Of a stretch of 64,000 nucleotides of DNA, positions 1 to 30,631 are shown one piece after another (the stretch's first letter is position 1; each line of letters starts with the position of its first letter). The notes beneath the pieces are model-generated. The model was not told the origin of the DNA, made no database searches, and saw only the letters and a list, made by a program, of their open reading frames with translations. A program made the position numbers and the translations under genes. Source of the DNA: a virus (taxonomy: Duplodnaviria; Caudoviricetes); the IMG/VR virus record IMGVR_UViG_3300042445_001485. One strand, given 5' to 3'.

Positions 1-455
1 TGGCTTTCTGCGGCAACCACACGGCTACGCAGACCCGAACTGGAGAACGAATGATCTCTGCCGTTGAACACTAGTTCAATCCCGCGCATTCCACATTCCT
101 CCATGCCAGAGAAATTTATATGTTGATATTCCACACCCAAGATGCGTACATCCACAGGCAAGATCAACAACAGGTCCCTAAGGTCCTGTTCAGTTTGATA
201 CACAACAACTTCGTCCACATAACGGCATGCGGCCAATTGTATTTGTCGTTCCACAATACTTTGTACAGGTTTGTTTTTGGTATCCGGGCGATCGATTGTG
301 GGATCTGTTTGCAAGCCACAAATTAGATAATCGCAATGATTCTTGGCTTCACTCAACATGGCAATATGTCCGGCATGGAGCATGTCGAATGTGCTGAATG
401 TTATACCAATTTTTTTACCTGCGTCTTTGAGTTCTCTAATGTGATTGAATATCAT
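1..455 (-). CDS. Cytidylyltransferase-family protein (TagD/glycerol-3-phosphate cytidylyltransferase-like), 3' end runs off the window
   Basis: Missing from the ORF track; manual translation from ATG at 455 gives MIFNHIRELKDAGKKIGITFSTFDMLHAGHIAMLSEAKNHCDYLICGLQTDP...RDHSFSSSGLR, with the HxGH motif and C-terminal SSS/T motif; ATGA overlap with the clpS stop. Confidence 0.9.
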   Translation of the reverse strand, partial: MIFNHIRELKDAGKKIGITFSTFDMLHAGHIAMLSEAKNHCDYLICGLQTDPTIDRPDTKNKPVQSIVERQIQLAACRYVDEVVVYQTEQDLRDLLLILPVDVRILGVEYQHINFSGMEECGMRGIELVFNGRDHSFSSSGLRSRVVAAES

Positions 456-763
456 GTTTCTATTTCAAGTTTGACACTCAGCGGGAATCCGTGACTGCGA
501 GCCAGCAAGGTGACTTCGACACCTTTTTGTTCTGCAATCTCATAGGGTAGTACTGCTACCACCGCCGATCCTGCTTCGTGAATCTTTTCTGTGATTGCCA
601 CAGCGGCCGATTCATCATAGTAAAACATTATCTTTAATGTTTCCACAACAAATTCCATGGTGGTTACTTCATCATTGATGTAGATCACTCTATATTGACT
701 AGGTTCTTTGAGTTTAACCTTAGGAGCAATCTTTGGTTTATTTTTAGTTTCAGGTTCTGCCAT
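452..763 (-). CDS. clpS: ATP-dependent Clp protease adaptor ClpS
   Basis: YRVIYINDEVTTMEFVV...IHEAGSAVVAVLPYEIAEQK...FPLSVKLE matches the ClpS core. Confidence 0.95.
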   Translation of the reverse strand: MAEPETKNKPKIAPKVKLKEPSQYRVIYINDEVTTMEFVVETLKIMFYYDESAAVAITEKIHEAGSAVVAVLPYEIAEQKGVEVTLLARSHGFPLSVKLEIET

Positions 764-778
764 AGTATAGTATTTAAC

Positions 779-805
779 ACAAGGGTGGATGAGTCCACCC
801 TTGCT
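779..805 (-). terminator. Stem-loop between the sHSP and clpS genes (probable terminator)
   Basis: caagggtgga-tgag-tccacccttg perfect inverted repeat. Confidence 0.55.
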
Positions 806-814
806 TAGATTATA

Positions 815-1258
815 TTACTTTGTGAAAGTAATTGCAATCTTTTTGGGCTTGTCTTCTTCAGGCACTAGTTGTTCTAGTGCAATAGAAAGAATACCGTTTT
901 TAACAGTGGCCCCACAAACTTCAATATGTTCTGCCAATGGAAATGTGCGAGCAAAATTGCGGGCACTAATACCTTTGTGTAGGTATTCAACTTCTGTTTC
1001 GTCTTTGGCTTTGTCGCCACGGACTGTCAAGATGTTGTCCTTTAGTTCTACATCAATTTCGCTGTCAGCAAAGCCAGCAACTGCCAACTCAATCACATAG
1101 TGTGTGTCGTCAATTTTGATTACATTATGTGGGGGATAGTTGCCATCGCTTTTGCTGTTGGCAAAAGTGCGATTTAACTGTGCAAACAATTGGTCAAAGC
1201 CAATGGCATGACGGTGTAGGCTAGGTAAATCGAGGGTGTGAAGTGTGAATTGTGTCAT
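815..1258 (-). CDS. Small heat-shock protein (Hsp20/IbpA family)
   Basis: AIGFDQLF, NYPPHNVIK, YVIELAVAGF, YLHKGISARNFARTF, NGILSIAL motifs; AAAGGAG RBS. Confidence 0.95.
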   Translation of the reverse strand: MTQFTLHTLDLPSLHRHAIGFDQLFAQLNRTFANSKSDGNYPPHNVIKIDDTHYVIELAVAGFADSEIDVELKDNILTVRGDKAKDETEVEYLHKGISARNFARTFPLAEHIEVCGATVKNGILSIALEQLVPEEDKPKKIAITFTK

Positions 1259-1331
1259 GTTGTTTCTCCTTTAATAAGCAAGTTATGACTTTTGTAATGT
1301 AGCCCCATAATGGGCGCTACATGTTTATTTA
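1259..1331 (-). promoter_or_regulatory. TAAATA late-type promoter plus structured 5' UTR of the sHSP gene (ROSE-like thermometer candidate)
   Basis: Minus strand TAAATA (1331-1326), hairpin GTAGCGCCC-ATTAT-GGGGCTAC, then CTTGCT-TATT-AAAGGAG placing UUGCU opposite the SD. Confidence 0.5.
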
Positions 1332-1349
1332 TTATACAGAAAAAATTAT

Positions 1350-1589
1350 TTAATACAACTTTTTTGGTAATTCTTGGTCACGCAACTTTTTACGCCAACG
1401 GGCCTGTGCCGCACCTCGTTTGCGTTTGCGTTCGGTTGTGGGTTTTTCAAAATGTTGGCGTTCTTTTATTTCTTCAAGTAGTCCCGACTCTTGGATTTTT
1501 TTCTTGAATTTGCGTAGAGCTTTATCCACTTGATCATTTTGAACAATTACGCTACATCCGCGAATTGGTTTTGGTTTGTAATATGACAT
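1350..1589 (-). CDS. rpsU: 30S ribosomal protein bS21
   Basis: VIVQNDQVDKALRKFKKKIQESGLLEEIKERQHFEKPTTERKRKRGAAQAR is a typical bS21 sequence. Confidence 0.95.
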   Translation of the reverse strand: MSYYKPKPIRGCSVIVQNDQVDKALRKFKKKIQESGLLEEIKERQHFEKPTTERKRKRGAAQARWRKKLRDQELPKKLY

Positions 1590-1600
1590 GTACTATTTAC

Positions 1601-3091
1601 TTAAATTTTACCTTGTTGTTGATTTTTTAAATATTCAGCTATTTGGGTTTGTTCTGTTTCACTGAGCTCGTCCGGATCGTACTCGCCCGAAGCAATTTTA
1701 TCTACCAGATGTTTGATATATGCTTCATTAAATACGTAGTTATCTGTTAGTGATTTATCACTTTCAACCCACTTGGACCCATTCCATTTGAACAATTTAC
1801 TGGGTAGATAATCTGTACGCAAAAACATGTCACCCTTGTTTGGCTTCAACGGAAACGATGTTCCGAAGTCAGCATTTGATGCGTTGCCTAAACTGGGATG
1901 ATTATCTGCTAGGGCACTTAATTCTGGAAACTGTTGTTTAAACGAGTCAATGCTATAACTACGGCCGTTATGCATTAAATGATCGCTGTTTGTTAAAAAT
2001 ACCAAGTTATCGTCGGGTGGTAGCGGTTCATCTAATGCCGCAACTTCCGCTTCAGTAAAAGGTCTAGTTTCAACAGCGGAAATCTCCCCAGGGGCGAGTA
2101 TAGCCATTGCGGCCGCATCTTCGTGTATGGCATGTGTGCTGGGTGGGGGTGGCGCCACCATGGGCATAAGATTCTTAAAATGTTCAAATGGCCGTTTTAA
2201 ATATGCCAAAGGGTCAAACTTAGTTTGAGGTTCATCGGGCTCGTTCTGAGCTATGGGCTCAGCGACTTCCGGCGCTGTTGGTGCCTCTACCGTTGGTTCA
2301 TCTAAAATTGATCCCGATTCTTTCTTGTCTCGTTCTTCTTGGGCCCACTTGATGCTTTGTTGTGCGGCTAGTATTAATACCAGTGCCAAGGGATCAAACA
2401 CCAGCACAATAATAATGATCACCAGCCTGACAGCTCGTTCTAATACATTCTGATCAGGATTGTCGCCATACACCAGGGCCGCTATGTATTTTATAGGACC
2501 GACTTCTGATTCGATCTTCCTGTTCTCTGCGGCGAGAGGTGCCCGGTCTTCATTAAGTTGACTAATTTTTTTCTGTTCGGCCTCGATCTCGGCTTGTAAA
2601 CGGGTTCGCTCTTTTTGCTGAGATCTGCGTATAGAGACTGCTTTATCGGCACCCTTTTCATCTGAGCTTCGGCCCATGACTTGATCCACTGCCTCATCAT
2701 ACTGTTTAAGAACTTTGCGGTTAGCATCGATATTGTCCCTTGCTATTTTGATTTTTTCATCGTATATGGCTACCCGGGCCATTGAATCACCTGATACTAA
2801 ACTTTGATCACTGTGTGCTTTACTCAGGAATCCAAAGATGCCCATGCTTGTTAACAGCATTAAGAATGCCACAGCCGGAACAAGATAAAACTTGTACAAC
2901 AGGCTGGCTCGTTCCCAATACATCTTTAGCCAAATAGCCGCAGTGACTTTGCCAACTTCTAGGCTGGCACCCATGATCATGATGGGGATCACAGCGGCTG
3001 AGAAAATGGCAGTTAGGCCTATAATACTGTAGTAGGCCGCAATGGCACTGATGATCAGTGCAACGATTAGAGTGAAGTATCCAAATATCAT
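1601..3091 (-). CDS. Membrane protein with N-terminal TM helices, coiled coil, second TM segment and C-terminal soluble domain
   Basis: Hydrophobic segments in the first ~90 aa and at ~aa 220-245, charged heptad region between; 496-aa ORF. Confidence 0.7.
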   Translation of the reverse strand: MIFGYFTLIVALIISAIAAYYSIIGLTAIFSAAVIPIMIMGASLEVGKVTAAIWLKMYWERASLLYKFYLVPAVAFLMLLTSMGIFGFLSKAHSDQSLVSGDSMARVAIYDEKIKIARDNIDANRKVLKQYDEAVDQVMGRSSDEKGADKAVSIRRSQQKERTRLQAEIEAEQKKISQLNEDRAPLAAENRKIESEVGPIKYIAALVYGDNPDQNVLERAVRLVIIIIVLVFDPLALVLILAAQQSIKWAQEERDKKESGSILDEPTVEAPTAPEVAEPIAQNEPDEPQTKFDPLAYLKRPFEHFKNLMPMVAPPPPSTHAIHEDAAAMAILAPGEISAVETRPFTEAEVAALDEPLPPDDNLVFLTNSDHLMHNGRSYSIDSFKQQFPELSALADNHPSLGNASNADFGTSFPLKPNKGDMFLRTDYLPSKLFKWNGSKWVESDKSLTDNYVFNEAYIKHLVDKIASGEYDPDELSETEQTQIAEYLKNQQQGKI

Positions 3092-3120
3092 AGTCGTATA
3101 TTTATAGGTTTTAGTCCTAT

Positions 3121-3149
3121 AGTATACGCAGATAAATGGGAGTTGTCAA
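3121..3149 (-). promoter_or_regulatory. sigma70-type promoter, followed by TATAAATA late-type motif
   Basis: TTGACA-17 bp-TATACT on the minus strand; CCTATAAATA about 15 nt downstream, just before the ATG at 3091. Confidence 0.7.
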
Positions 3150-3158
3150 TGATTATGG

Positions 3159-3310
3159 TTAATCTACTAACCAGGTTAAACCAATAGCAGACCTTGTTAA
3201 GGAGCCACCACTGCTGACAAACACACTGATTGTTTCGCCAGGTGCTAGTGTTAGATTATAATCCAACAGGTCAAATGTAGGTTGGTCGAGTTAGGATTTT
3301 GTACACCCAT
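3159..3310 (-). pseudogene. Probable internally deleted gene relic
   Basis: ATG at 3310 (TAATG overlap with upstream stop) reads MGVQNPNSTN, then a different frame reads PTFDLLDYNLTLAPGETISVFVSSGGSLTRSAIGLTWLVD-TAA ending at 3159; 152 nt, not a multiple of 3. Confidence 0.45.
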
Positions 3311-4170
3311 TATGCTTTAATACCAATAAAGAGTTGACTAGTACGATCAGCAGTCCATGTGTTGCTGTTAGTAGAACCATACCCATTATTGATTGCTGTT
3401 CTTACGGTGGCATTTAATGCAGAGGCATCCCAAACAGTAAGTACCACAATGTTACCACTGGCAACTCCGTTTAATGCGTTTGCCAACAAAGTTAAATCAC
3501 CAGCAACTCCATATGTGTCATAATTTGCTGTACTAACTAAATCACCATAAGAATCCAACACCACCATATTATGGCCTCTATCGCCAATATTCAATAGTTC
3601 AATGTCGTTTACAACTACTCTGCTATTCTGATATTCAGGTACATCCCATGTTGATGCATACACATAAATCTTATTACCACTCACATACTGTGTGGTTGTT
3701 AATGCCGCGGTTGTTCCAAATGCTTCGTAGAATGTAAATGCGGATACTGTTTCAATCCAAGGACGACCAGTAACAAGCCCGCCAACATTGGGATTGTCCA
3801 CGATAGAGTTGCCCGCAAATTGTGTGGGCAATGATGTAAGGTCATAAGTGGCTCTTGGTTTGCTTGATGCCGCCCGGTCTAGTGCGGCCAAATCTAATTT
3901 GGCTTTTTGTCTAATTTCTCTAGAAGCCAATCTGCCAATCTTGTTGTGTGTTCTTAGTGCTGTGCCAGTGATGATGCTCAAACTAGCAAGTGTGGCAGAT
4001 TCCGTCAAAATGGTTTCTGCCTTAGATATGTCGTACCAAGTAGAATTAAACCCACGGGCTGTGTTGATGGCTGTTTTTAACTGTGCCACGGTCTGACCAT
4101 TGTCGATGGTGTAGCTGTCATAAACGGCTGTGTTTAACAAGCTCTGTACTGTAATGGTGATATTGGCCAT
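3310..4170 (-). CDS. Putative virion protein: N-terminal ubiquitin-like (beta-grasp) domain, GRPW linker, C-terminal ILEI/FAM3-like lectin domain
   Basis: First ~80 aa follow ubiquitin spacing; C-terminal RGHNMVVLD..G....ANYDTY...LANALNGVASGNIVVLTVWDAS fits ILEI; TAAATA upstream. Confidence 0.6.
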   Translation of the reverse strand: MANITITVQSLLNTAVYDSYTIDNGQTVAQLKTAINTARGFNSTWYDISKAETILTESATLASLSIITGTALRTHNKIGRLASREIRQKAKLDLAALDRAASSKPRATYDLTSLPTQFAGNSIVDNPNVGGLVTGRPWIETVSAFTFYEAFGTTAALTTTQYVSGNKIYVYASTWDVPEYQNSRVVVNDIELLNIGDRGHNMVVLDSYGDLVSTANYDTYGVAGDLTLLANALNGVASGNIVVLTVWDASALNATVRTAINNGYGSTNSNTWTADRTSQLFIGIKA

Positions 4171-4222
4171 ATTTGTCCCTGTATAGGATATTTAGCCAAA
4201 AGACCACCCGCCGGGGCGGTGT

Positions 4223-4405: not shown

Positions 4406-4548
4406 TCTTCCACTCCGATCCTAATTAGAAAACCACGAGAGTTTCTTAACTTATCTAATTCAGAGAGTTCGTTGTCTGAACCCACTGTGGTCCAATTGGC
4501 GTATAATGCAACGATTGCAATAACTATGAAACCAATTGTTTCTTTCAT
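4402..4548 (-). CDS. Small hypothetical membrane protein (48 aa)
   Basis: Manual translation MKETIGFIVIAIVALYANWTTVGSDNELSELDKLRNSRGFLIRIGVEE; ATGA overlaps at both ends. Confidence 0.5.
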   Translation of the reverse strand: MKETIGFIVIAIVALYANWTTVGSDNELSELDKLRNSRGFLIRIGVEE

Positions 4549-5057
4549 TCTGCAACTCCAAACTGTTTTATCAATCGTGAGATATCGGTAATATCGTTTT
4601 TTGTAATATTAAACCATTCTCCTCTTACCCATTTTTTTTCAAAATGCTTGTGTAATTTTTTTTCAATAATATCTACTCGGTTCAGCAAGTCTGATTTCCA
4701 AACTAATTTAAGATCCAACCAATGCGCTGTCTGTAAAGATCTTTTTCTTTTATCTGTGTTTGATCCCGAAGTTATTCCAATTTTATAAGGTGTTCCTGGG
4801 ATATCTGGACCTATAACATAAATGGTTCCAGTAACAGCACCTGCCATGACCAATGTAGTTTTTTGACTACGAACTAGTCCTTTGGCCTTTATTGCGCTAC
4901 GCCATTGTGTGGCATATTGTTTGGCACAGGATTTACATTGGGGAATAGCAAGTTGATTCAAATTTTTAGCAACCTTCTTGAGACCGCTAGGAAAAAAATA
5001 CTCTTCTGTTGCTTCCAGTAACAGTTTACATTTTGAGCAGGTGTAATGTAATTTCAT
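4545..5057 (-). CDS. T5orf172/MUG113-type GIY-YIG-like endonuclease with N-terminal Cys-pair region
   Basis: IYVIG...YKIGIT...KRKRSLQT...IEKKLHKHF...RGEWF; start moved to MKLHYTCSKC (5057) because the longer ORF overlaps a separate small gene. Confidence 0.8.
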   Translation of the reverse strand: MKLHYTCSKCKLLLEATEEYFFPSGLKKVAKNLNQLAIPQCKSCAKQYATQWRSAIKAKGLVRSQKTTLVMAGAVTGTIYVIGPDIPGTPYKIGITSGSNTDKRKRSLQTAHWLDLKLVWKSDLLNRVDIIEKKLHKHFEKKWVRGEWFNITKNDITDISRLIKQFGVAE

Positions 5058-5058
5058 T

Positions 5059-5229
5059 CTAATTCCTATCCACTGGTAAACAAACATATTGTCGAGCAGT
5101 GGTATTGGGTTGTTTAGCAGATACACAATCCTGTTTGGTTCGATAATGCTCGACCACTTGATAATCCTTGATAGGACCATTATTGGATCCCGGAGACAAC
5201 AATACAACAACCAATACCCAATTGAGCAT
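5059..5229 (-). CDS. Small secreted/membrane protein (56 aa, two Cys)
   Basis: Manual translation MLNWVLVVVLLSPGSNNGPIKDYQVVEHYRTKQDCVSAKQPNTTARQYVCLPVDRN; abuts neighbours. Confidence 0.55.
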   Translation of the reverse strand: MLNWVLVVVLLSPGSNNGPIKDYQVVEHYRTKQDCVSAKQPNTTARQYVCLPVDRN

Positions 5230-5408
5230 CACAGACCTTTGATAAAGTCTATAACTGCACGGGCTTGAGTTAAATCCATGTCGGTGTCGTCTGCTGTTTT
5301 ATCTGCCGGACGGAATACATAGTGTGTATTCTTAATGGCATACAGACTGGTGTTGTTGGTGGGTACAACATTGAATCGGTCATAGCTCATTTGGCGTTTC
5401 TTGTTCAT
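5229..5408 (-). CDS. Hypothetical protein (59 aa)
   Basis: Manual translation MNKKRQMSYDRFNVVPTNNTSLYAIKNTHYVF...; AGGAG RBS upstream; TGATG overlap downstream. Confidence 0.55.
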   Translation of the reverse strand: MNKKRQMSYDRFNVVPTNNTSLYAIKNTHYVFRPADKTADDTDMDLTQARAVIDFIKGL

Positions 5409-5417
5409 ACTTGCTCC

Positions 5418-5798
5418 TTAGGTGATTAAAATATGTTTCTGGTTGGCTCGGTCGCTGTACAACTGGTTGCCACGCTCACGAATCATGTCGGCCGCTGTCT
5501 GCGGTGTGGACTCAAACAGGTCACGCAAATCTTGTTGAGTAATACCACGGTCTGTTGTTACTGTATAAATTTCGTAATGTCGCTGTGGGTTTTTTCGGGC
5601 TCGCATGATCATCATACCAACCATTTGGTTGACTTTTACCAGGTGTTCATTGCGTGGTACTGTGTCTGGATCGCGGATTATGTCGAACAGTTTTTCTTGT
5701 TCAAATGTTTCTGAGCGATCACGGTCTTGTGTAATGTCAACACAGGCTTCAAGTCCGGTGTTGTCCCAACTAAGAATAAAAAGATTTTGTTTCTTCAT
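5418..5798 (-). CDS. Hypothetical early protein
   Basis: ORF; start placed at MKKQNLF just downstream of a TTGACT-17-TACAAT promoter. Confidence 0.65.
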   Translation of the reverse strand: MKKQNLFILSWDNTGLEACVDITQDRDRSETFEQEKLFDIIRDPDTVPRNEHLVKVNQMVGMMIMRARKNPQRHYEIYTVTTDRGITQQDLRDLFESTPQTAADMIRERGNQLYSDRANQKHILIT

Positions 5799-5804
5799 AG
5801 TGCT

Positions 5805-5833
5805 ATTGTACAATAGATGCCATTGTTAGTCAA
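5805..5833 (-). promoter_or_regulatory. sigma70-type early promoter
   Basis: TTGACT-17 bp-TACAAT; the -10 sits in the palindrome CTATTGTACAATAG. Confidence 0.7.
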
Positions 5834-6224
5834 TGGCTCTACGGAACACAATTTCCTGTCGTGCAAAGGCTTCTTGTTCCCAGGGTTGATCCAAATACGG
5901 AGTGCGTCTTGAGTAGAACTTGCCACACCATTTTTTACCTCGTGGTGTTATCTTTAATATACCTTTGGCCATTTGACGCACATGCACCAATTCATGTGCA
6001 AGTGTTACTCCCAATTCCAGGCAATTGCGTTTGGGCTTTAACACAACCAAAACGGTATCTATGCCTGTCATTGGCACTGTGGTGCCGTGGTCTTTGAGAT
6101 CACGATCTACTTTAATCATTAAAAATTTACGGCTACTGTCCAACCCAAGTTGGGTCAGCATACTGGGCAGTACCGCTTCAATAAATCGTCGAGTCTTGGG
6201 GCCTGCTTCAACATGGAATTCCAT
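5826..6224 (-). CDS. Zn-metallopeptidase-like protein (HExxH)
   Basis: TLAHELVHVRQ and PWEQEAF motifs. Confidence 0.7.
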   Translation of the reverse strand: MEFHVEAGPKTRRFIEAVLPSMLTQLGLDSSRKFLMIKVDRDLKDHGTTVPMTGIDTVLVVLKPKRNCLELGVTLAHELVHVRQMAKGILKITPRGKKWCGKFYSRRTPYLDQPWEQEAFARQEIVFRRAID

Positions 6225-6234
6225 TGTGTGTTCC

Positions 6235-6561
6235 TTAGTGGCTGTTCAGAGCAGGATTAAATTCGGCAATCAATTCACGCTCACGAGCATGAGCAGGCTT
6301 GCGTCCACGCACAAACTCCACAATGCCGTAAGTGTGAGCCAATGTGCCGTATTCGCGAATTGACTTACACAAAGCCCAATCTTTGTTTTCTGTAACTGCA
6401 CGGCGTACATGTTTCTGCATACGCACTTTTAGAGCTTTACGAACTTGTTGTCCGCAAACTGTAATACCAATGTATTGTTGGCCTGTTGTTGTATTGGTAA
6501 TACAGTAAACGACATGCTTGGTATCTTGGCGTCTTTTTCGGGGTTGCTTTTTAAGTTCCAT
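6235..6561 (-). CDS. Small GIY-YIG nuclease-domain protein
   Basis: HVVYCITNTTTGQQYIGIT...RMQKH...AHARERELI. Confidence 0.75.
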   Translation of the reverse strand: MELKKQPRKRRQDTKHVVYCITNTTTGQQYIGITVCGQQVRKALKVRMQKHVRRAVTENKDWALCKSIREYGTLAHTYGIVEFVRGRKPAHARERELIAEFNPALNSH

Positions 6562-7270: not shown

Positions 7271-7846
7271 TTAGTCCTTGTAAAAAATATGGCGGCCAAT
7301 TTGGCTAATTTTCTTCTTGCCCCAGTTGGGACTGACATAATCGCCATGGAAGTAAAGTGCATCACGCATTGTACTAAGTCCAAAGTTTTCTAGCAACACT
7401 TTCTTTGCCACTTCTTCACTTTCTCGATAAAGTGCAGGATATATGGGTCGGATTTTGTGTGTGGCTTCGCAGACCCAGCTGAATTGGCAAACTATTTTGC
7501 CAAGGTAATTGTTCTGTTGATATACCACTCCGCATACTCCTTCGCCAAATCGACCTGATGTAACTCGGTTCATGGTAACTTGAGCCACAGCAACTTTGCC
7601 TTCAAACGGCTCACTTGCGGCTTCCCAATAGATGTTCCTGGTCAAACAATCCAACTGACGAGTACGATCTGCTGTACTGACGAAACCTTGACGGTAAGCT
7701 TCTGAGCCTTCCCTTAGGTTTTCGAATTTAATATTGACTACCTGTACCAGTACAGCGGCAATTAACATTAAACCTAAAAATTTCAACAGCATTGTAGTGA
7801 ATGCCGCTAAAAGGTCTTGGTTGATACGAGACATGAGTGTCATCAT
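7271..7846 (-). CDS. Cell-wall hydrolase, SleB/Hydrolase_2 family, with N-terminal anchor
   Basis: CLTRNIYWEAASEPFEGKVAVAQVTMNRV...CGVVYQ...CQFSW...ALYFH...IGRHIFY. Confidence 0.9.
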   Translation of the reverse strand: MMTLMSRINQDLLAAFTTMLLKFLGLMLIAAVLVQVVNIKFENLREGSEAYRQGFVSTADRTRQLDCLTRNIYWEAASEPFEGKVAVAQVTMNRVTSGRFGEGVCGVVYQQNNYLGKIVCQFSWVCEATHKIRPIYPALYRESEEVAKKVLLENFGLSTMRDALYFHGDYVSPNWGKKKISQIGRHIFYKD

Positions 7847-7985: not shown

Positions 7986-9545
7986 TTATTTTTTGTATTT
8001 TGTACCAATCAGCAACGAGTTGCGAGACTGCACCAACAGATTTCTTCCCTCAACCAGAGCGGCATGAATGGCATCGCCACCAGCATTGCTCTGGCGGCAT
8101 CCTTCAAAAAGTGTGGCATAATTTAGTCCCTGACTATCAACTCCATAGTCATGTAAATTATTAACCATGCTCAAAATACCGGTAACTCCGGCTGGGGTTA
8201 TGTCGTCCAGTTGTATTCCCGCCAATAATAAATTATTCAATTCAGTTGTCACTTGAGATTGCATGGCAGTGACAGCAGAATTTCCTGTGGTGGCCGTTGA
8301 GCTGAGTGCTGTTGTGGTGTTGAAGGTATTGGCCGCCGACCAAAGCGCCACAAATGCATTATCAATTTTGCTGGCTAGGCCGGTTGCACATTGTGTAATG
8401 ACATTTGCTAAATTTGCGTTAAGGGCTGTACCTGCTGTGTCAGACTCTGCTGTGGTTAAACAACTGCTGATGGTTGTAAGTGCCGTACTGTGGGTAACTC
8501 CTGCTATAGAACCCATAACATCTGTTATAGTTGGGTTACCTAGACTGCCTGTACCTGTACCTATAGAAGCAGACAAATTGGCATAATCAGAATCTGATAT
8601 AATATCAGTATAGGCATCCAAGTAAGTGAGGACAGGAACTTCAATGTTGTTTAATAAATCAGCAACTTCTGTAAAAGATTTAAATCTGCCGCCTAAGTTA
8701 ATGAACTCATTGGCCAAGCCTGCAAAGTCACCACCGGGAACAACTGCCAGCTCTGCACTATTAAAGATCTTACTCAAGTCAAGCAATTGACTTAAATCTG
8801 TTATGGTAGAATTTGGTCTAAGGCCTGTTTGAGAAATAATTTTGTTTAGTGTGTCGCCTTTGATACTTGATAAGAATATAAGTAGTGTATTGGCGTCATC
8901 TGTTCTCCAAGTGGTAGGCAATAAGTAACCACCGATTATATAATCGGATTTCTGCGTTTCTGCAAAGCCATAGTCTATTAGATTCTGTATAAATGTTGCA
9001 GGGTCGCCTAATTTGTTTAGATTTTTAACATCATAGGCAGTACCAAAGCGGCGAATGCCATTGCTTAATGTGGCCATTTGTGCATCAGTGCCGAAGATGT
9101 TACTAAGTCCATTAGCAACTGCGCTACTGTGATTTGTAACACTGATACCCAGATCATCAAATGTTTGATCATAAAAAGTTTCCAACATGGTCTGTGTTGC
9201 TAGACTTGCTGTAACAAATGCACCGGCTTGTGATAGTATAGCAGTAAACTTTGTGATATCGTATAGGCCGTTGCCAATGCTGGGCAACATTTTATTGTAG
9301 TGTGATGACACCGTGGAAATTGTTGTGTTAGCGTTAGCAATATACAAGGGCAAGTATAAGTTAGTTACTGTCCATCCTCTAGCAGACAGGGTATTGCCGT
9401 GTGTGGTTCCAGGTTGTAGATTTGAATAGTTGCTGACTAGACCATTGGTGCTGATAGTGGTCATAGCCGAGGTCATAATGGCATTGGGTTGCAGGCCAAC
9501 ATTGCCAAGTAGATTTGACGCTGAGATCATCAATGACGGAGTCAT
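7986..9545 (-). CDS. Putative tail/baseplate-associated structural protein
   Basis: 519 aa, Ser/Thr/Asn/Ala-rich, immediately downstream of the PAAR-like gene. Confidence 0.5.
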   Translation of the reverse strand: MTPSLMISASNLLGNVGLQPNAIMTSAMTTISTNGLVSNYSNLQPGTTHGNTLSARGWTVTNLYLPLYIANANTTISTVSSHYNKMLPSIGNGLYDITKFTAILSQAGAFVTASLATQTMLETFYDQTFDDLGISVTNHSSAVANGLSNIFGTDAQMATLSNGIRRFGTAYDVKNLNKLGDPATFIQNLIDYGFAETQKSDYIIGGYLLPTTWRTDDANTLLIFLSSIKGDTLNKIISQTGLRPNSTITDLSQLLDLSKIFNSAELAVVPGGDFAGLANEFINLGGRFKSFTEVADLLNNIEVPVLTYLDAYTDIISDSDYANLSASIGTGTGSLGNPTITDVMGSIAGVTHSTALTTISSCLTTAESDTAGTALNANLANVITQCATGLASKIDNAFVALWSAANTFNTTTALSSTATTGNSAVTAMQSQVTTELNNLLLAGIQLDDITPAGVTGILSMVNNLHDYGVDSQGLNYATLFEGCRQSNAGGDAIHAALVEGRNLLVQSRNSLLIGTKYKK

Positions 9546-9546
9546 A

Positions 9547-9840
9547 TCACGATCCTACCGTTACTGTTGCGGCGCCCGGGCCTGTGATGGGACCTGGTCC
9601 CCAAAACTCTCTGCGATTTTTTTTAACTGATACTGTGGTAGTATCTCCAACAAAACTCAATGCTTTACCTTCAATGGTTACAGTACTGGATCCCGGACCC
9701 GTAACAGTTTCGCCGTGATCTGTTTTGTCGCTTGATACCAGTGTTGGTGGTTTGCCTTCAATCGTGACTGTACTTGCTCCAGGGCCTGCTACGCTTTCGC
9801 CCTTGGCAGTTGCATCACCGAGTAACGAAGGTACGGCCAT
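9547..9840 (-). CDS. PAAR-like spike-tip protein
   Basis: Repeats GPG(A/S)STVTIEGK, GD and DHG motifs typical of the PAAR-fold repeats. Confidence 0.75.
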   Translation of the reverse strand: MAVPSLLGDATAKGESVAGPGASTVTIEGKPPTLVSSDKTDHGETVTGPGSSTVTIEGKALSFVGDTTTVSVKKNRREFWGPGPITGPGAATVTVGS

Positions 9841-26301: not shown

Positions 26302-27125
26302 ATACGATCAGCCATCACCCGGAACCAGTGGGCCGAACCGGCAGCAGGTGCTGATTCTGGAAGTTGTATGCCACTCTTGCCCAGGGTTTCACGGGCCGCG
26401 GCAATGATGGTTTGGTAGTCGGGACGCCGTTGTACAGCCGCAATGATCTTGTCTGCTGACATTAAACTGGCTAACGGAATGCCTGTTACTTGGCTCAACA
26501 TCTGTGGATCCTGGCCGCCTTCTATAGTTTGATTTGTGGCACGGTCAACCAGCCCATGTTTGTAACTCCACTTTAGTTCAGGAGCAACAGCATTAACTAT
26601 GCTGGACAATATAATTTGTTTGCTCATGCCAGAGTATTGGTCGCCTTGTCGGGCACCTTTCATGGCAAATGCTTGCCACTTGGGATCGCCAAACATAAAG
26701 TCTGTTTGTGCGAATCCATTTTTGGCATTGCCATTGATGGGTGTTTTAAAGTGTACTGAGTCACCAGTTAACTCAATCCAACCTTCTTTCCAAGCAGGAG
26801 CCAGTTTTGTTTTGGCACGATTGCGTATTTGGTCTGGGGGAATACCTTGTTGCTGACACCAACGGCTCAGTACATCTGCCAATACTTCTTTGGTAATGGC
26901 CTTGTCGTCAACTGCTAGATCCAAGTCTCCGCTGTCGTCTTTGCGTCCTGTGCTTCCTAGCCATTTGGTAGGAACATCTTCTTCGTCCCGTTCTTCACTG
27001 AAATCCAATCCAGTGATTTTTTCTAGCCAGGCAATGGTGGTAGGAATTTCAGCACGAACAATGCGACGAGTGAGTTCAGCACCCTCGGCATTTTTAAATA
27101 TGTTTCCACCTTCAGTTAACATCAT
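26298..27125 (-). CDS. Pol-beta-superfamily nucleotidyltransferase-like protein
   Basis: LGSTGRKDDSGDLDLAV and downstream QTDFMF. Confidence 0.65.
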   Translation of the reverse strand: MMLTEGGNIFKNAEGAELTRRIVRAEIPTTIAWLEKITGLDFSEERDEEDVPTKWLGSTGRKDDSGDLDLAVDDKAITKEVLADVLSRWCQQQGIPPDQIRNRAKTKLAPAWKEGWIELTGDSVHFKTPINGNAKNGFAQTDFMFGDPKWQAFAMKGARQGDQYSGMSKQIILSSIVNAVAPELKWSYKHGLVDRATNQTIEGGQDPQMLSQVTGIPLASLMSADKIIAAVQRRPDYQTIIAAARETLGKSGIQLPESAPAAGSAHWFRVMADRI

Positions 27126-30100
27126 ACTCGTTCTTTCATTTTGCGTAACAATGCGGCACTAAAGTCAATGCCGGCTGTAAGTACAGGTTCTGGTTGTTTT
27201 ACACCGCCACCGTTTAGTTTGGTCTGCTGGAATCCTGGTACTGCTGGAGCAGTTTGTTGTGCTTTTTTAGCGGCTTGGTCTTTCCTGAACTGATCCAAAT
27301 CCAATGTGGTACCTTGTGGCTCTGGTTGTGCCGGTTGTGTAGTGGCATTGGTAGTGACAGGTACTGCCGGTTTGGTCACAGCAGGAACACCTGTGGGCGC
27401 ATTGATTGTGGTCTTGCCATAGCCAGTCATTTGTTTGCTGAAGTCTGGTGTGGGCTGTGCAGGACCGCCTGCGGGTGGTGTGCCCAACTGCTTGGTCATG
27501 CGGTTCATCACATCGTTGGTGGCTGTTTGAGCTTGCTGTGTAGAAGCAGCCATTTGTCCCTGCGCCGCTGTTGCGGCATCGGCTTGCTTGGCCTTGCGAA
27601 TGTCTTCTGGGCTCTGTCCAGCCGGTGTTGTAGTTGCGGCCGGAGGTGTTGCACCTGTTTTGGCCCGGTTTTTAGCAATAGATTTCTCTGTTGCATCAAC
27701 TGTGCCGTCTTTGTTAAGATCGCGTGGATCCAATTTGGCAGGTGCTTGCTGTGTTGTTGCCGGAGGTGCGGCATCTGGCTGTTGCGCCAGTGGTTTGCCT
27801 GTTTCTGTATCAAACTTCTGACCTGGTTTGATGGGTTTGCCGTCGCTTTGTGTACCAAGGTCGGGAGGTGTTGCACCTGTTGCAGGCGCTGTTTGTCCTG
27901 CTTGTTGTGTGCCACCCGGGGCTTGTTGTACTTGTGCAATTAACTTGGCACTGGCTGGATCTTTGGGATCTAATTTCTGACCACCAATTGATATTGGCTC
28001 CGCTTTGGCCGAGGCGGCAGGAGCCGTTGTGGCTACTGGTTCTTGTGCTGTTTGCTGTGCAGGTGTTTTTGCCTTGGTCAAGGCCGCTTGCTGTTCTGCT
28101 TGTTTGGCCAACATGGCCGCTATGGCAGATGGTACTTCTTTGTTTTCTGTATCGTACCATTTGTTTCCAACTTTTTTGTAGGCATGATCTTGGCCATATT
28201 CGTCTTTGATCTTGACTGAGTCTCGGCCTGCGCCCTCGCCTCCGGGTGCGTAGGCACCGCGTACTAGACTCTGTCCACCGGCGCCCATGCCCTTGCCCGA
28301 CTGCACAGCTCTATTTAAATCGTTAACAGTGTCTGCAACCGCTGTGCCGCCTGTGTTGACGGCAGATCCCATATTATCCAGGCTTTTTTGGTAGTTACTT
28401 GTCCTGCGATCGGAGGTGGTAACATCATTGCCGGTGTCTGTGGTACCCTGTGCTGTGGCGGATGCAGAACCAGGTGCCGCAGGTCCTTGTGATCTTGGAG
28501 TTGAGCGAGGTGCTACTCCGTATGCTTGCGGTGCCGCCCCTTGACCATAACTGGGTTGTTGTCCTTGTGGATCTTGGCCCGGCTGTGCATCTTGTTTTGC
28601 ATAGGGATTGGCTTCGCCTGTGGCGCCAACTGCGTCTCCGGCTTGACTGGTACGAGCTGAATCAAAGCCGGTTTCTTGGCCTTTGGCAAATGCATCTTTG
28701 GTGCCGGCAATGGCTCCTTTGACTCCACCAATTGCGCCACCAATTGCTCCAGCGGCCTTGCCCAATAAACCTTGTCCGGGTGCTTTTGCTGGTGCTTCTG
28801 GTGCCGCTGTCACCGTGCTGGCACCTGCAGGTAATCCCAGATTTTGAAACACTTGGTCTACAGTTTCTTGCGGAACTCCAGCACTGACCATGATGCCGGC
28901 AACTTGTCCCGAATCTGTGGGGTTGCCGGCCTTCTTCCAGGCCTGTTGCAGTTTGTCTGCTGTGACCTTGTTGGTCACATTACCGGCCTTGGTCTTTAAC
29001 CAATTGCCGGCTTTCTTAAACATGTCACCAATGCCAGCTTCGGTCAAGTGTATGTTGCCACGAGGCTTGCCAACGCTTTCACGGATGTACCACATGCGGG
29101 CTGTTAGCTCGTAGTCCACATATTCGTTAATGGCCGCTACTGGGCTATGTCCTGATCTTAATAAGATACCGTTAGCCCGGGCCGCCGCTTTGTTGGCCCA
29201 ATAGTTTTGTGCATTTTGTGTACCTTGGGCATCATCGGCGGCTTGCTGTTGTTGTTTTGCTGTAACTGCGGCCTGTTGGTCCGGAGTCATTTGATCCCAG
29301 GTTGGTGCAGGTTCAAATGGTTTTCCTGTTAATCTATTAGTGTCCGGCTGAGTTGCCGCGGCAGCACTGGTATCGGTTGGTGCAGGAATAGCTCCTGTAT
29401 CAACTTTGTTTTGAACCATCTTGTTCAAATCAACTTGTTGTTGTCCAGCATTGGGATTGATGGGAGCTTCACCACCTTGGTTTGGTTGTTCGCCACCAAA
29501 TTGTTTCATATAGCCAGGAGACGAATTTCCACCAGATCGTTCAATTGGTGTACCATCGGGAAAAGTATCTTTACCCACTATTGGATTAGGGCTTCGTGCC
29601 TGTCCATCCCAGCCTTTGCCCGGCCCCGAATCAAATGCGCCCAAGTCCGTGCTGGATTTTAAATCATTGCTTACAGCAATATCCTGTAGTTGTGCACCGG
29701 GCATTCCGGTTGTTTGTTCAATTCTTGCTCGCTCTGCTGGATCGGCATTGATCCATTCTTGTGCGGCTTTGATATCAACACTTTGATTTTGTGCTTGGGC
29801 ATCCACTGGTAATTCACCGGTTGTTGCTTGCTGTTGTGCTTCTGCACCCCGATTCTGCATGTATGCTTGAGCACCTTGTGCCACTGCTCCGGCTATACCA
29901 CCGCCTGCGGCGCCAAGTCCGGCGCCCATGGCACCTTGCTTCAATGCACCTGTTAGGCCTTGACCTTGCATGAGTCCTCTAACAGCACCTGTCAGGCCAC
30001 CCACCACAGTACCTGTTAAAGCACCTGTGGCTGCCATACCTAGGCCTAGTCCAGCAATGGCAGGACCAGCCACCACAGTGGCAATGCCAGCAATACCTGC

Positions 30101-30631
30101 CAACACCAGGGTCTGTACCGCAGGATTCTTGGCAGCCTGTTTGACCAAGTCCATTAGACTTTTCTTGGCTTTGGGGTCTTGTACCTGTGCAATTTGTTCT
30201 TGTGCTTTTTGTTCAAATCCCTCAACAGGACCTGCATCTGCAGGCGGCAAACTCTGTACCAGTTTGTCTTTGTTTTGTGCCAATAATTTGTTGGCAAGTT
30301 CTTTGACACCCGACGCACCTTTTTTGGCTAGATCAACTGCACCCGCACCAACTGCACCCGCGGCATCTGCGCCCTTGCCCAACATGCTACGATTGTCTCC
30401 GCCAGCTGTGGCAATCTTTTCTGCTGATCCAAATGCGTTTTGAATCTGCTGTGCGGTCATTGCCGCTTCTGTTAGGATATCAATATTATTAATGCTGGCA
30501 ATAAATGGTAGGGTAAAATTCTCACGCACCTTCTGCATATAACCCGTAGTCTTAGGATCCATACCTGCTGTCAAGCGTGAATACATTTTGGTTTCGTATA
30601 GTCGTTGTTCTAGGATAATGCTGGGTTTCAT
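27122..30631 (-). CDS. Large low-complexity Ala/Gly/Gln/Pro/Thr-rich protein, putative internal virion protein
   Basis: 1169-aa ORF; conserved-looking island AGIGDMFKKAG...KVTADKLQQAWKKAGNPTDS. Confidence 0.65.
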   Translation of the reverse strand: MKPSIILEQRLYETKMYSRLTAGMDPKTTGYMQKVRENFTLPFIASINNIDILTEAAMTAQQIQNAFGSAEKIATAGGDNRSMLGKGADAAGAVGAGAVDLAKKGASGVKELANKLLAQNKDKLVQSLPPADAGPVEGFEQKAQEQIAQVQDPKAKKSLMDLVKQAAKNPAVQTLVLAGIAGIATVVAGPAIAGLGLGMAATGALTGTVVGGLTGAVRGLMQGQGLTGALKQGAMGAGLGAAGGGIAGAVAQGAQAYMQNRGAEAQQQATTGELPVDAQAQNQSVDIKAAQEWINADPAERARIEQTTGMPGAQLQDIAVSNDLKSSTDLGAFDSGPGKGWDGQARSPNPIVGKDTFPDGTPIERSGGNSSPGYMKQFGGEQPNQGGEAPINPNAGQQQVDLNKMVQNKVDTGAIPAPTDTSAAAATQPDTNRLTGKPFEPAPTWDQMTPDQQAAVTAKQQQQAADDAQGTQNAQNYWANKAAARANGILLRSGHSPVAAINEYVDYELTARMWYIRESVGKPRGNIHLTEAGIGDMFKKAGNWLKTKAGNVTNKVTADKLQQAWKKAGNPTDSGQVAGIMVSAGVPQETVDQVFQNLGLPAGASTVTAAPEAPAKAPGQGLLGKAAGAIGGAIGGVKGAIAGTKDAFAKGQETGFDSARTSQAGDAVGATGEANPYAKQDAQPGQDPQGQQPSYGQGAAPQAYGVAPRSTPRSQGPAAPGSASATAQGTTDTGNDVTTSDRRTSNYQKSLDNMGSAVNTGGTAVADTVNDLNRAVQSGKGMGAGGQSLVRGAYAPGGEGAGRDSVKIKDEYGQDHAYKKVGNKWYDTENKEVPSAIAAMLAKQAEQQAALTKAKTPAQQTAQEPVATTAPAASAKAEPISIGGQKLDPKDPASAKLIAQVQQAPGGTQQAGQTAPATGATPPDLGTQSDGKPIKPGQKFDTETGKPLAQQPDAAPPATTQQAPAKLDPRDLNKDGTVDATEKSIAKNRAKTGATPPAATTTPAGQSPEDIRKAKQADAATAAQGQMAASTQQAQTATNDVMNRMTKQLGTPPAGGPAQPTPDFSKQMTGYGKTTINAPTGVPAVTKPAVPVTTNATTQPAQPEPQGTTLDLDQFRKDQAAKKAQQTAPAVPGFQQTKLNGGGVKQPEPVLTAGIDFSAALLRKMKERV

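What the first reader, a model, noticed from the sequence alone, without database searches (positions are those of the whole stretch)
3310..4170. Ubiquitin-like domain fused to an ILEI/FAM3-type lectin in a late phage gene
Seen: residues 3-80 (ITITVQSLLN-TAVYDSYTIDNGQTVAQLKTAINTARG-FNSTWYDISKAETILTESATLASLSIITGTALRT) follow the spacing and hydrophobic pattern of ubiquitin ([69 protein letters not shown]) but without a C-terminal diglycine. Next come a LPTQFAGN...NPNVGGLVTGRPW linker and a domain matching ILEI. Established: ILEI/FAM3 folds include sugar-binding modules such as the POMGNT1 stem domain, and bacterial ubiquitin-like conjugation systems act in antiphage defence on virion proteins. 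Inference: a virion-displayed lectin whose Ubl module serves as an assembly adaptor or as a decoy for host ubiquitination-like defence.
Basis: partly seen in the sequence, partly recalled or inferred. Interest (0 to 1): 0.65.

Follow-up and report, generated by a model that had tools for sequence, protein, structure and literature searches.

The report
Ubiquitin-fold, adapter and lectin phage protein
A large T4-like phage from lake metagenomes encodes a 286-residue protein that joins a true ubiquitin-family domain, a new conserved 65-residue adapter and a sugar-binding ILEI/GG domain like that of the T4 tail-fibre knee-cap; it is most likely a fibre-associated adhesin, and its usual partner gene has been deleted here.

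Summary
The ORF lies on the minus strand (3310-4170). Residues 1-75 are a ubiquitin-family beta-grasp: AF2 pLDDT 91.7, ISG15/ubiquitin Z 12-13, family profile against ubiquitin E 4e-8. Residues 141-286 are an ILEI/FAM3/GG domain: Pfam E 2e-11, POMGnT1 stem Z 14.2. They keep the stem's GlcNAc-binding triad as invariant R198/D248/R276.

It occurs alone, with the Ubl, or with swapped glycan-binding heads (Laminin_G_3, GLEYA/PA14, Calx-beta, ILEI). It is usually coupled to a downstream fibre-like 'virion structural protein' gene.

In this window that partner is reduced to a remnant (3159-3310). The gene still evolves under purifying selection (dN/dS 0.13).

T4 gp35, the long-tail-fibre knee-cap, carries the same domain, and the relatives are T4-like jumbo phages. 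Three complete relatives encode no JAB or E1.

Best reading: a late-expressed, fibre- or virion-docked lectin. A role for the Ubl in assembly is unproven, and the decoy idea has no support.

The scan met this family before on other DNA (e1-5408720), with the same reading. It is a new variant of a known kind.

The parts
3310..4170 (-). Whole gene, 286 aa plus stop (protein P0001)
   Evidence: ORF list and translation. The identical protein is found on 17 metagenome contigs.
3946..4170 (-). Residues 1-75: ubiquitin-family beta-grasp domain without a C-terminal Gly-Gly
   Evidence: AF2 secondary structure. Foldseek and VIA matches to ubiquitin, ISG15 and NEDD8. Pfam ubiquitin hit in orthologues. 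Family profile against PDB ubiquitin, E 4e-8.
3751..3945 (-). Residues 76-140: conserved adapter module. It has a helix at 84-101, a hairpin at 116-125, and the motifs RQxAKLxLA, LPTQ, NPN and GRPW.
   Evidence: Alignments A1 and A4. 217 related loci in IMG/VR. It occurs alone or with other domains. No Pfam or PHROG family covers it.
3313..3750 (-). Residues 141-286: ILEI/FAM3/GG lectin-type domain (Pfam ILEI on residues 198-285, nt 3316-3579)
   Evidence: 32% identity to an internal domain of the 2201-aa tail protein of Alteromonas phage AD45-P1.
3343..3579 (-). Codons of the putative sugar-binding triad: R198 (3577-3579), D248 (3427-3429), R276 (3343-3345)
   Evidence: All three are invariant in alignment A3. 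The HMM alignment puts R198 on POMGnT1 R129 and D248 on D179. The VIA ranges give one constant offset of 69 for all three, including R276 = R207. The triad's role is stated in PMC9802357.
4203..4220 (-). Intrinsic-terminator-like hairpin ending the upstream gene
4189..4194 (-). TAAATA box (core of the T4-type late promoter) 18 nt before the ATG
   Evidence: Sequence. 13 of the 34 coding-strand TAAATA lie within 45 nt upstream of gene starts, against about 2 expected.
3159..3310 (-). Deletion remnant of the partner gene (phrog_1645-type virion structural protein). Its ATG overlaps the P0001 stop (TAATG). It keeps the first 10 codons (MGVQNPNSTN), then the last ~40 codons out of frame, plus a stop.
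   Evidence: Sequence. blastx matches the C-termini of the partners in L086 and L130 at 71-77% identity, E 4e-17. The N-terminus is identical to the partners in L052 and L092.

Best explanation
P0001 is a modular adhesin or accessory protein of a T4-like jumbo phage.

- The C-terminal ILEI/GG domain is a lectin head that probably binds a beta-linked sugar such as GlcNAc on the host envelope.
- The 65-residue adapter is the docking element. It attaches this head, and in other phages other lectin heads, to a virion fibre-type structure.
- In most relatives the docking target would be the fibre-like structural protein encoded immediately downstream. This recalls the monomeric, ILEI-bearing gp35 knee-cap that sits on the T4 long tail fibre.
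- The N-terminal ubiquitin-family domain is an optional cis module. It may aid folding or assembly, or give a second protein contact. It is not a conjugatable modifier.

Shown: the three-part anatomy, the conserved sugar triad, the modularity, the gene pairing in relatives, the loss of the partner here, and purifying selection.

Inferred: virion location, docking by the adapter, the sugar ligand, and the role of the Ubl.
For: Folds and motifs.

Triad R198/D248/R276 = POMGnT1 R129/D179/R207.

The same adapter carries Laminin_G_3, GLEYA/PA14, Calx-beta, Gly_rich_2 or ILEI heads. Domains are also found inserted inside it.

Gene pairing. Among the unique adapter genes in the fetched loci, 34 of 37 Ubl-bearing ones, and 14 of 15 Ubl-ILEI ones, are followed within a few bases by a phrog_1645 gene. 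That gene has a conserved N-terminus and a variable body. Its homologues are annotated 'virion structural protein' in Synechococcus phages S-T4 and S-B05. The same domain occurs in 967-2065-aa proteins, some near the capsid gene.

Link to known fibres:
- T4 gp35 carries Pfam ILEI and is the knee-cap that binds gp36 (PMC3004832).
- The GG domain of gp35 is in the literature.
- BFVD hits include gp35 homologues, Bacillus phage tail fibre and RBP, and a Lactobacillus phage ILEI protein.
- POMGnT1-stem-like CBMs are described in Streptococcus phage Tal.

Context. The relatives have a gp23-type capsid protein and only this one ILEI gene per genome. A PAAR spike-tip gene and a cell-wall hydrolase lie 3-5 kb upstream in the same gene block. 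A late-type TAAATA box precedes the gene. dN/dS is 0.13 against a 96%-identical orthologue that also lacks the partner.
Against: - No virion proteomics or structure exists for any member.
- The gene lies among nucleotide-metabolism, replication and proteostasis genes, about 85 kb from the capsid gene in a complete relative.
- The partner is deleted here, yet the gene is kept. Docking on that partner therefore cannot be its only role, unless another target exists outside the 64-kb window.
- Many family members are adapter-only or Ubl+adapter with no binding head. That fits a connector or chaperone as well as an adhesin.
- No sequence similarity links the adapter or the partner to T4 gp35, gp36 or gp37.
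- T4 gp35 itself lacks the sugar triad.
Confidence: 0.55

Rival explanations
1. Non-virion assembly factor. The Ubl+adapter acts as a chaperone or attachment catalyst for the downstream fibre-like protein and is not kept in the mature particle. This would resemble lambda gpI (a Ubl-bearing tail assembly protein next to the host-specificity fibre gene) or T4 gp38/gp57A.
For: Stand-alone adapter (66-70 aa) and Ubl+adapter (136-153 aa) genes sit 1-4 nt before the partner gene. The Ubl co-occurs with the partner: 34 of 37 Ubl-bearing genes have it, against 17 of 41 Ubl-less ones. Lambda TAPI has an N-terminal Ubl, flanks the fibre gene and is not in the mature tail (PMC1779556).
Against: The window's protein carries a lectin head with an intact sugar triad. 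It stays under purifying selection after the partner was deleted. Three complete relatives have no JAB peptidase. The swapped heads are all adhesion-type domains.
Confidence: 0.17
2. Capsid or neck decoration adhesin, like T4 Hoc. The adapter would dock on the head or collar rather than on a fibre and display a lectin for weak adherence to glycans.
For: It is a single-copy gene outside the core tail module. The exchangeable surface-type lectin heads resemble decoration proteins. The gene persists without the fibre-like neighbour.
Against: The tight pairing with a fibre-like gene in most relatives. The closest phage matches of the ILEI domain are tail fibre, RBP and gp35 proteins.
Confidence: 0.1
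3. Intracellular counter-defence. The ubiquitin-family domain would act as a decoy, inhibitor or handle for host ubiquitin-like conjugation systems (Bil, CBASS Cap2/Cap3) or for host proteolysis.
For: The domain is closer to ubiquitin proper than to ThiS/MoaD. Bil systems target phage tail fibres (bioRxiv 10.1101/2023.09.04.556158, listed). ClpS and Hsp20 genes lie nearby.
Against: There is no Gly-Gly or free C-terminus. The Ubl is dispensable in about half of the family. It is always fused to the adapter, and no stand-alone Ubl was seen. No JAB or E1 was found in relatives. No host is known.
Confidence: 0.05
4. Cell-wall-binding accessory of lysis or entry. The GlcNAc-type lectin would bind peptidoglycan and work with the nearby SleB-type hydrolase.
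For: The POMGnT1-type triad recognises beta-linked GlcNAc. A Hydrolase_2 gene lies in conserved synteny upstream.
Against: Nine small genes and a terminator separate the two. The pairing is with the downstream structural gene, not with the hydrolase. Other family members carry PA14 or LamG heads instead.
Confidence: 0.05

Closest known systems
T4 gp35, hinge connector ('knee-cap') of the long tail fibre
   Same: Both come from T4-type phages (gp23-like capsid in relatives). gp35 carries a Pfam ILEI/GG domain (Guo et al. 2006, cited in PMC10276149). It is a small accessory protein encoded just upstream of a fibre gene and binds the fibre as a monomer (PMC3004832). BFVD fold hits include gp35 homologues.
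   Different: In gp35 the ILEI domain is N-terminal and lacks the R/D sugar residues. gp35 has no Ubl and no adapter. The relatives have no Phage_T4_gp36 domain. Outside ILEI there is no detectable similarity (hhalign probability 8%).
POMGnT1-stem-like carbohydrate-binding modules in phage adhesion devices (Streptococcus phage TP-778L Tal CBM_1; Bacillus phage JL/pW4 fibre and RBP; Alteromonas AD45 tail protein)
   Same: They share the fold, and the Arg/Asp sugar residues are conserved (PMC9437275).
   Different: Those modules are internal domains of very long trimeric tail proteins. Here the domain is the C-terminal head of a 286-aa protein with its own adapter and Ubl.
Lambda/T1 tail assembly protein I (TAPI, gpI)
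   Same: It is a phage protein with an N-terminal ubiquitin-like beta-grasp fused to a further domain, encoded beside the host-specificity fibre gene (PMC1779556).
   Different: The TAPI Ubl is ThiS/MoaD-like, has a conserved terminal Gly and a Gly-rich linker, and comes with a JAB/NlpC peptidase (gpK). Here the Ubl is of the ubiquitin family proper. It has no Gly and is joined to a helix, and relatives have no JAB.
Ubiquitin family proper (PF00240), including integral Ubl domains and ubiquitin-ribosomal protein fusions
   Same: Sequence and fold both match. The N-terminal position on another polypeptide is also shared.
   Different: There is no Gly-Gly, no known protease site and no E1/E2/DUB in the phage relatives. 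The context is bacterial-virus rather than eukaryotic.
T4 Hoc and similar decoration adhesins
   Same: Both are small non-essential-looking proteins that display a glycan-binding domain through a short docking element.
   Different: [quoted passage not shown] No sequence or fold relation was seen.

Membership tests
Ubiquitin family (Pfam PF00240) | beta-grasp fold b-b-a-b-b-(3-10)-b | tested here: met
   AF2 model, pLDDT 83-96 over residues 1-80. Ubiquitin/ISG15/NEDD8 at rmsd 1.5-1.7 A over 72-77 residues, Z 12-13.3.
Ubiquitin family (Pfam PF00240) | Sequence match to the family model | tested here: met
   P0001 alone falls below threshold. Orthologues pass the curated cut-off: P0071 41.5 bits, P0157 34 bits, P0035 27 bits. 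The family profile hits ubiquitin at E 4e-8.
Ubiquitin family (Pfam PF00240) | C-terminal Gly-Gly, or a Gly available for conjugation | tested here: not met
   The domain ends ...LRTHNKI and runs on into the adapter helix. This holds across the family.
Ubiquitin-like conjugation system | Associated E1 (ThiF) and JAB/DUB genes | tested here: not met
   No PF00899 or PF14464 match in 5 related records, 3 of them complete 355-360 kb genomes. The window's own full genome was not available.
ILEI/FAM3/GG domain (Pfam PF15711) | Match to the family model above the curated cut-off | tested here: met
   44.5 bits against a cut-off of 27, E 2.3e-11.
ILEI/FAM3/GG domain (Pfam PF15711) | Three-layer beta-beta-alpha fold shared with FAM3B/C and the POMGnT1 stem | tested here: met
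   POMGnT1 stem Z 14.2, rmsd 1.7 A over 113 residues. FAM3B Z 13.5. FAM3A Z 12.6. Foldseek TM(query) 0.58-0.67.
ILEI/FAM3/GG domain (Pfam PF15711) | Sugar-binding triad (POMGnT1 R129, D179, R207) | tested here: met
   R198, D248 and R276 are invariant in 34 sequences. They align by HMM and by a constant offset of 69 in the structural alignment. The R276 = R207 equivalence rests on that offset, not on a printed residue alignment.
ILEI/FAM3/GG domain (Pfam PF15711) | Actual carbohydrate binding | not testable with these tools
   This needs a glycan array or resin binding with the recombinant domain.
T4 gp35-type knee-cap | ILEI domain in a small protein of a T4-type phage | tested here: met
T4 gp35-type knee-cap | Similarity to gp35 outside ILEI, and neighbouring gp34/gp36/gp37-type genes | tested here: not met
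   hhalign probability 8%, limited to the ILEI part. The adapter against gp35 and gp36 shows no match. No Phage_T4_gp36 domain in relatives, though that search also rang in no control genome.
Lambda TAPI (gpI)-type Ubl tail assembly protein | N-terminal Ubl, gene beside a fibre or host-specificity gene | tested here: met
   This holds in relatives. In this window only a remnant of the neighbour is left.
Lambda TAPI (gpI)-type Ubl tail assembly protein | ThiS/MoaD-type Ubl with terminal Gly, Gly-rich linker, JAB/NlpC partner | tested here: not met
   The best sequence matches are to ubiquitin proper. There is no Gly and no JAB.

The most novel reading that the evidence does not exclude
A bona fide ubiquitin-family domain has been recruited by a widespread group of T4-like jumbo phages as a working part of the host-recognition apparatus. 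One possibility is a cis-chaperone that is clipped off at the LRT|HNK boundary, as ubiquitin is from eS31/eL40; Ubl-less family members start exactly at that boundary. Another is a virion-exposed or intracellular mimic that blunts host ubiquitin-like tagging of tail fibres (Bil-type defence). The 65-residue adapter would then be a new universal plug for mounting lectin heads on phage fibres.
Probability: 0.12. Interest if true: 0.8.

Novelty: new variant of a known kind. Interest (0 to 1): 0.5.

Why it matters
ILEI/GG lectins on phage fibres and Ubl domains in tail-assembly genes are each known. Their fusion through an undescribed, highly conserved adapter is not in Pfam, PHROGs or the papers searched.

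The family is large: 1465 close homologues, 360 clusters at 50% identity, and 217 IMG/VR loci. It is strikingly modular, so the adapter may be a general plug for exchanging glycan-binding heads. That bears on host-range evolution in uncultured freshwater jumbo phages.

The family is also an unusually ubiquitin-like prokaryotic-virus Ubl. It is a natural test case for what a non-conjugatable ubiquitin fold does in a bacterial setting.

The partner-gene deletion in this lineage is a natural experiment that separates the protein's function from its neighbour.

Tried and rejected
- **Complex prediction.** Complex prediction was run on the natural pair from a relative (L007: Ubl-adapter-ILEI 286 aa + partner 541 aa, both as alignments). 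The result was 'no answer', score 0.00. It is not used for or against binding.
- **Window's genome.** It is not held, and records behind the ENA/NCBI loci are not searchable. Whole-genome questions were asked of IMG/VR relatives instead.
- **Cultured phages.** Megablast of 8 kb against them found no match. tblastn of residues 1-141 found no match even at E 1. The adapter and Ubl seem absent from cultured phages in that collection.
- **Paralogues.** None of the adapter, the C-domain or the partner was found elsewhere in the window.
- **Partner protein.** It has no Pfam family, no PDB sequence match, and only weak leads in the ESM Atlas.
- **Cyanophage S-T4.** It has the partner homologue, but the small upstream gene is not an adapter.
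- **T4 fibre proteins.** hhalign of the adapter against T4 gp35 and gp36, and of the partner against gp37, found nothing.
- **Rosetta-stone fusion.** No adapter-partner fusion was found among the 270 fetched proteins.
- **Full late promoter.** The 8-mer TATAAATA is not enriched (4 found, 3.96 expected). Only the TAAATA core is enriched before genes.
- **Readthrough or frameshift.** This was considered for the ORFs that stop right after GRPW and rejected. The next gene lies in any of the three frames and has its own start.

Full report
**The object.** The ORF at window 3310-4170 is on the minus strand and encodes 286 residues. The identical protein is called on 17 metagenome contigs. It has 1465 homologues at E <= 1e-3 in the 90%-clustered protein collection, most of them about 286 aa. 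The window carries RNR, glutaredoxin, DnaB, primase, helicase, Hsp20, ClpS and bS21 genes. Related contigs of 355-400 kb carry a gp23-type capsid gene. This is therefore an uncultured T4-like jumbo phage. No cultured phage shares DNA with it.

**N-terminal domain.**
- An AF2 model built on a 51-row alignment has pLDDT 91.7 and pTM 0.75. It shows strands at 3-9, 17-23, 46-50 and 71-76 around a helix at 28-39.
- Foldseek matches ubiquitin, ISG15, NEDD8 and Hub1 at rmsd about 1.5 A over about 75 residues, TM(target) 0.79-0.89.
- The Foldseek-independent VIA search gives ISG15 Z 13.3 and many ubiquitins at Z 12-13.
- By sequence, P0001 alone does not reach Pfam ubiquitin. Orthologues of 66-74% identity do: P0071 at 41.5 bits, E 1e-10. 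More distant family members with other C-termini do as well: P0157 at 34 bits.
- A 30-sequence profile of the domain finds mono-ubiquitin at E about 4e-8 as its best solved relatives.
- The domain ends ...LRTHNKI. It has no Gly-Gly.

**C-terminal domain.**
- Pfam ILEI scores 44.5 bits against a cut-off of 27.
- A family profile finds the POMGnT1 stem (E 7e-8), FAM3C, FAM3A, FAM3B and TMEM2.
- A separate model of residues 139-286 has pLDDT 95.1. It superposes on the POMGnT1 stem at Z 14.2, rmsd 1.7 A over 113 residues and 26% identity, and on FAM3B at Z 13.5.
- In the POMGnT1 stem, Arg129, Asp179 and Arg207 bind beta-linked GlcNAc directly. FAM3 proteins that keep them bind GlcNAc (PMC9802357).
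- In the phage family R198, D248 and R276 are invariant.
- The HMM alignment places R198 on R129 and D248 on D179.
- The structural alignment (model 164-286 on chain 97-217) gives the same offset of 69 for all three residues. The R276 = R207 equivalence rests on that offset only.

**The 'linker' is the core of the family.** Residues 76-140 are the best-conserved part. They comprise a helix at 84-101, a hairpin at 116-125, and the motifs RQxAKLxLA, LPTQ, NPN and GRPW. An exhaustive search of 1.84 billion cluster representatives found 360 relatives, in four kinds:
- proteins sharing only residues 1-140;
- proteins that start exactly at residue ~76, with no Ubl;
- proteins with the C-domain behind other N-termini;
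- proteins with whole domains inserted between NPN and GRPW.

The heads fused after GRPW are Laminin_G_3, GLEYA/PA14, Calx-beta, Gly_rich_2 or ILEI. All of these are adhesion or carbohydrate-binding types. No Pfam or PHROG family covers the adapter. It was not found in cultured phages. There are one or two adapter genes per jumbo-phage genome.

**A conserved gene pair.** In IMG/VR loci about 35 of 80 adapter ORFs stop 1-4 residues after GRPW. These are stand-alone adapters of 66-70 aa or Ubl+adapter proteins of 136-153 aa.

The next gene starts 1-4 nt later, or overlaps as TAATG, in any of the three frames. This looks like translational coupling, not readthrough. That gene matches phrog_1645 'virion structural protein'. 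It has a conserved ~45-residue N-terminus (N-S/T-T-x-Y-x-H-P-x-E-x-N-L-L-x-L-H-K-A-M) and a variable body of 270-860 aa.

Homologues are annotated as virion structural proteins in Synechococcus phages S-T4, S-B05 and S-B43. In S-T4 the gene lies between terS and terL. The domain also occurs in proteins of 967-2065 aa in relatives, some near the capsid gene.

| Adapter gene class (unique, enough downstream DNA) | With adjacent partner | Total |
|---|---|---|
| Ubl-bearing | 34 | 37 |
| Ubl-ILEI | 14 | 15 |
| Ubl-less | 17 | 41 |

These counts are not phylogenetically independent.

**The partner is deleted here.** The 219-nt gap after P0001 is a remnant of that gene. Its ATG overlaps the P0001 stop. 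Ten codons follow (MGVQNPNSTN), identical to the partner N-termini in L052 and L092. Then, out of frame, come the last ~40 codons and the stop, 71-77% identical to the C-termini of the 725-aa and 757-aa partners in L086 and L130 (blastx E 4e-17).

A 96%-identical orthologue (L151) has lost even that remnant. An 85%-identical one (L152) instead has a diverged adapter-like 108-aa gene and a 306-aa gene with a tail-fibre-like N-terminus.

Between the window and L151, both partner-less, dN/dS is 0.13. In the Ubl there is 1 non-synonymous against 16 synonymous changes. The protein therefore has a selected function that does not need the adjacent gene. A target elsewhere in the unseen genome cannot be excluded.

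**Comparison with known systems.**
- The GG/ILEI domain was first noted in phage gp35 (Guo et al. 2006, cited in PMC10276149).
- I confirmed Pfam ILEI in T4 gp35 at E 1e-8.
- gp35 is the monomeric knee-cap that binds gp36 on the long tail fibre (PMC3004832).
- BFVD fold hits of my model include gp35 homologues, a Bacillus phage tail fibre and RBP, and a Lactobacillus phage ILEI protein.
- tblastn finds the domain inside the 2201-aa tail protein of Alteromonas phage AD45-P1.
- POMGnT1-stem-like CBMs that keep the Arg/Asp pair are described in Streptococcus phage Tal proteins (PMC9437275).
- In related complete genomes the P0001 orthologue is the only ILEI gene.
- gp35 lacks the sugar residues and shows no other similarity. 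The adapter and the partner do not resemble gp35, gp36 or gp37.
- For the Ubl, the precedent is lambda gpI (TAPI), a Ubl-bearing assembly protein beside the host-specificity fibre gene. It has a terminal Gly and a JAB partner (PMC1779556).
- Here three complete relatives have neither Prok-JAB nor ThiF.

**Expression and context.** An intrinsic-terminator-like hairpin (4220-4203) ends the upstream gene. A TAAATA box lies 18 nt before the ATG. TAAATA is enriched before genes on the coding strand, 13 of 34 occurrences against about 2 expected. Late expression is therefore plausible but not shown. A PAAR-motif protein (32.5 bits, cut-off 27) and a SleB-type hydrolase lie upstream in the same block. 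That fits a partly tail-related neighbourhood.

**Verdict.** The most likely reading (0.55) is a fibre- or virion-docked lectin in which the adapter, not the Ubl, is the docking element. The Ubl would be an optional cis module of unknown role. The rivals are a non-virion assembly factor (0.17), a capsid decoration (0.10), a counter-defence decoy (0.05) and a cell-wall-binding accessory (0.05).

An earlier follow-up in this scan, on another genome (e1-5408720), reached the same reading for a Ubl+adapter-only member. My tests were done independently, before I saw it.

Noticed in passing
window 3159-3310 (minus): A pseudogene remnant of a phrog_1645-type virion structural gene lies in what looks like an intergenic gap. 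The N-terminal 10 codons are fused out of frame to the last ~40 codons. A near-identical contig (L151) has lost it completely. This locus is a deletion and replacement hot spot.
   Followed up: yes
window 9547-9840 (minus), with 7986-9545 and 7271-7846: A 97-aa PAAR-motif protein (Pfam 32.5 bits) is followed by a 519-aa unknown protein and a SleB-type cell-wall hydrolase. Together they may form a tail-spike or cell-puncturing set, placed between the RNR genes and the gene studied. The 519-aa protein has a 611-aa homologue in the same position in L046.
   Followed up: partly
window 4545-5210 (minus) and 6235-6561 (minus): These are T5orf172/MUG113 and GIY-YIG (SegE-like) homing-endonuclease-type genes. 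The first is 170-221 aa on some near-identical contigs and is replaced by a 67-aa ORF in L151. It is a mobile-element polymorphism just upstream of the gene studied.
   Followed up: partly
window, coding (minus) strand, e.g. 4189-4194, 3099-3104, upstream of 1589 and 763: The TAAATA hexamer is strongly enriched within 45 nt upstream of gene starts, 13 of 34 occurrences against about 2 expected. In several cases it lies only 4-7 nt before the start codon, which suggests leaderless or very short-leader late mRNAs.
   Followed up: partly
window 3121-3149 and 3099-3106 (minus): The 496-aa membrane/coiled-coil gene (1601-3091; weak phrog_11591 'virion structural protein') has two upstream elements. 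One is a near-consensus TTGACA-N17-TATACT box and the other is TATAAATA 7 nt before its ATG. Both are conserved in L151.
   Followed up: no
L152:4882-5208 and 5213-6133: In an 85%-identical relative the partner slot holds two different genes. One is a 108-aa protein with a diverged adapter-like pattern (...KLAKRNIKLDLIA...HRPW). The other is a 306-aa protein with a tail-fibre-like N-terminus (MSIVKISELPEL...).
   Followed up: partly
G002:C1:251766-252353, G002:C1:86242-86829, G007:C1:242834-243454, G009:C1:269039-269659: The central domain of the partner protein also occurs inside giant proteins of 967-2065 aa in related jumbo phages. Some lie within about 15-20 kb of the gp23-type capsid gene.
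   Followed up: no
window 452-1589 (minus): A bS21, Hsp20 and ClpS gene block lies just downstream. It is conserved in synteny with the gene studied across relatives (L001, L003, L152).
   Followed up: no
window 27122-30631 and 35982-39236 (minus): Two very large ORFs (1169 and 1084 aa) lie in a region of higher GC (0.46-0.48). Neither has any PHROG match.
   Followed up: no
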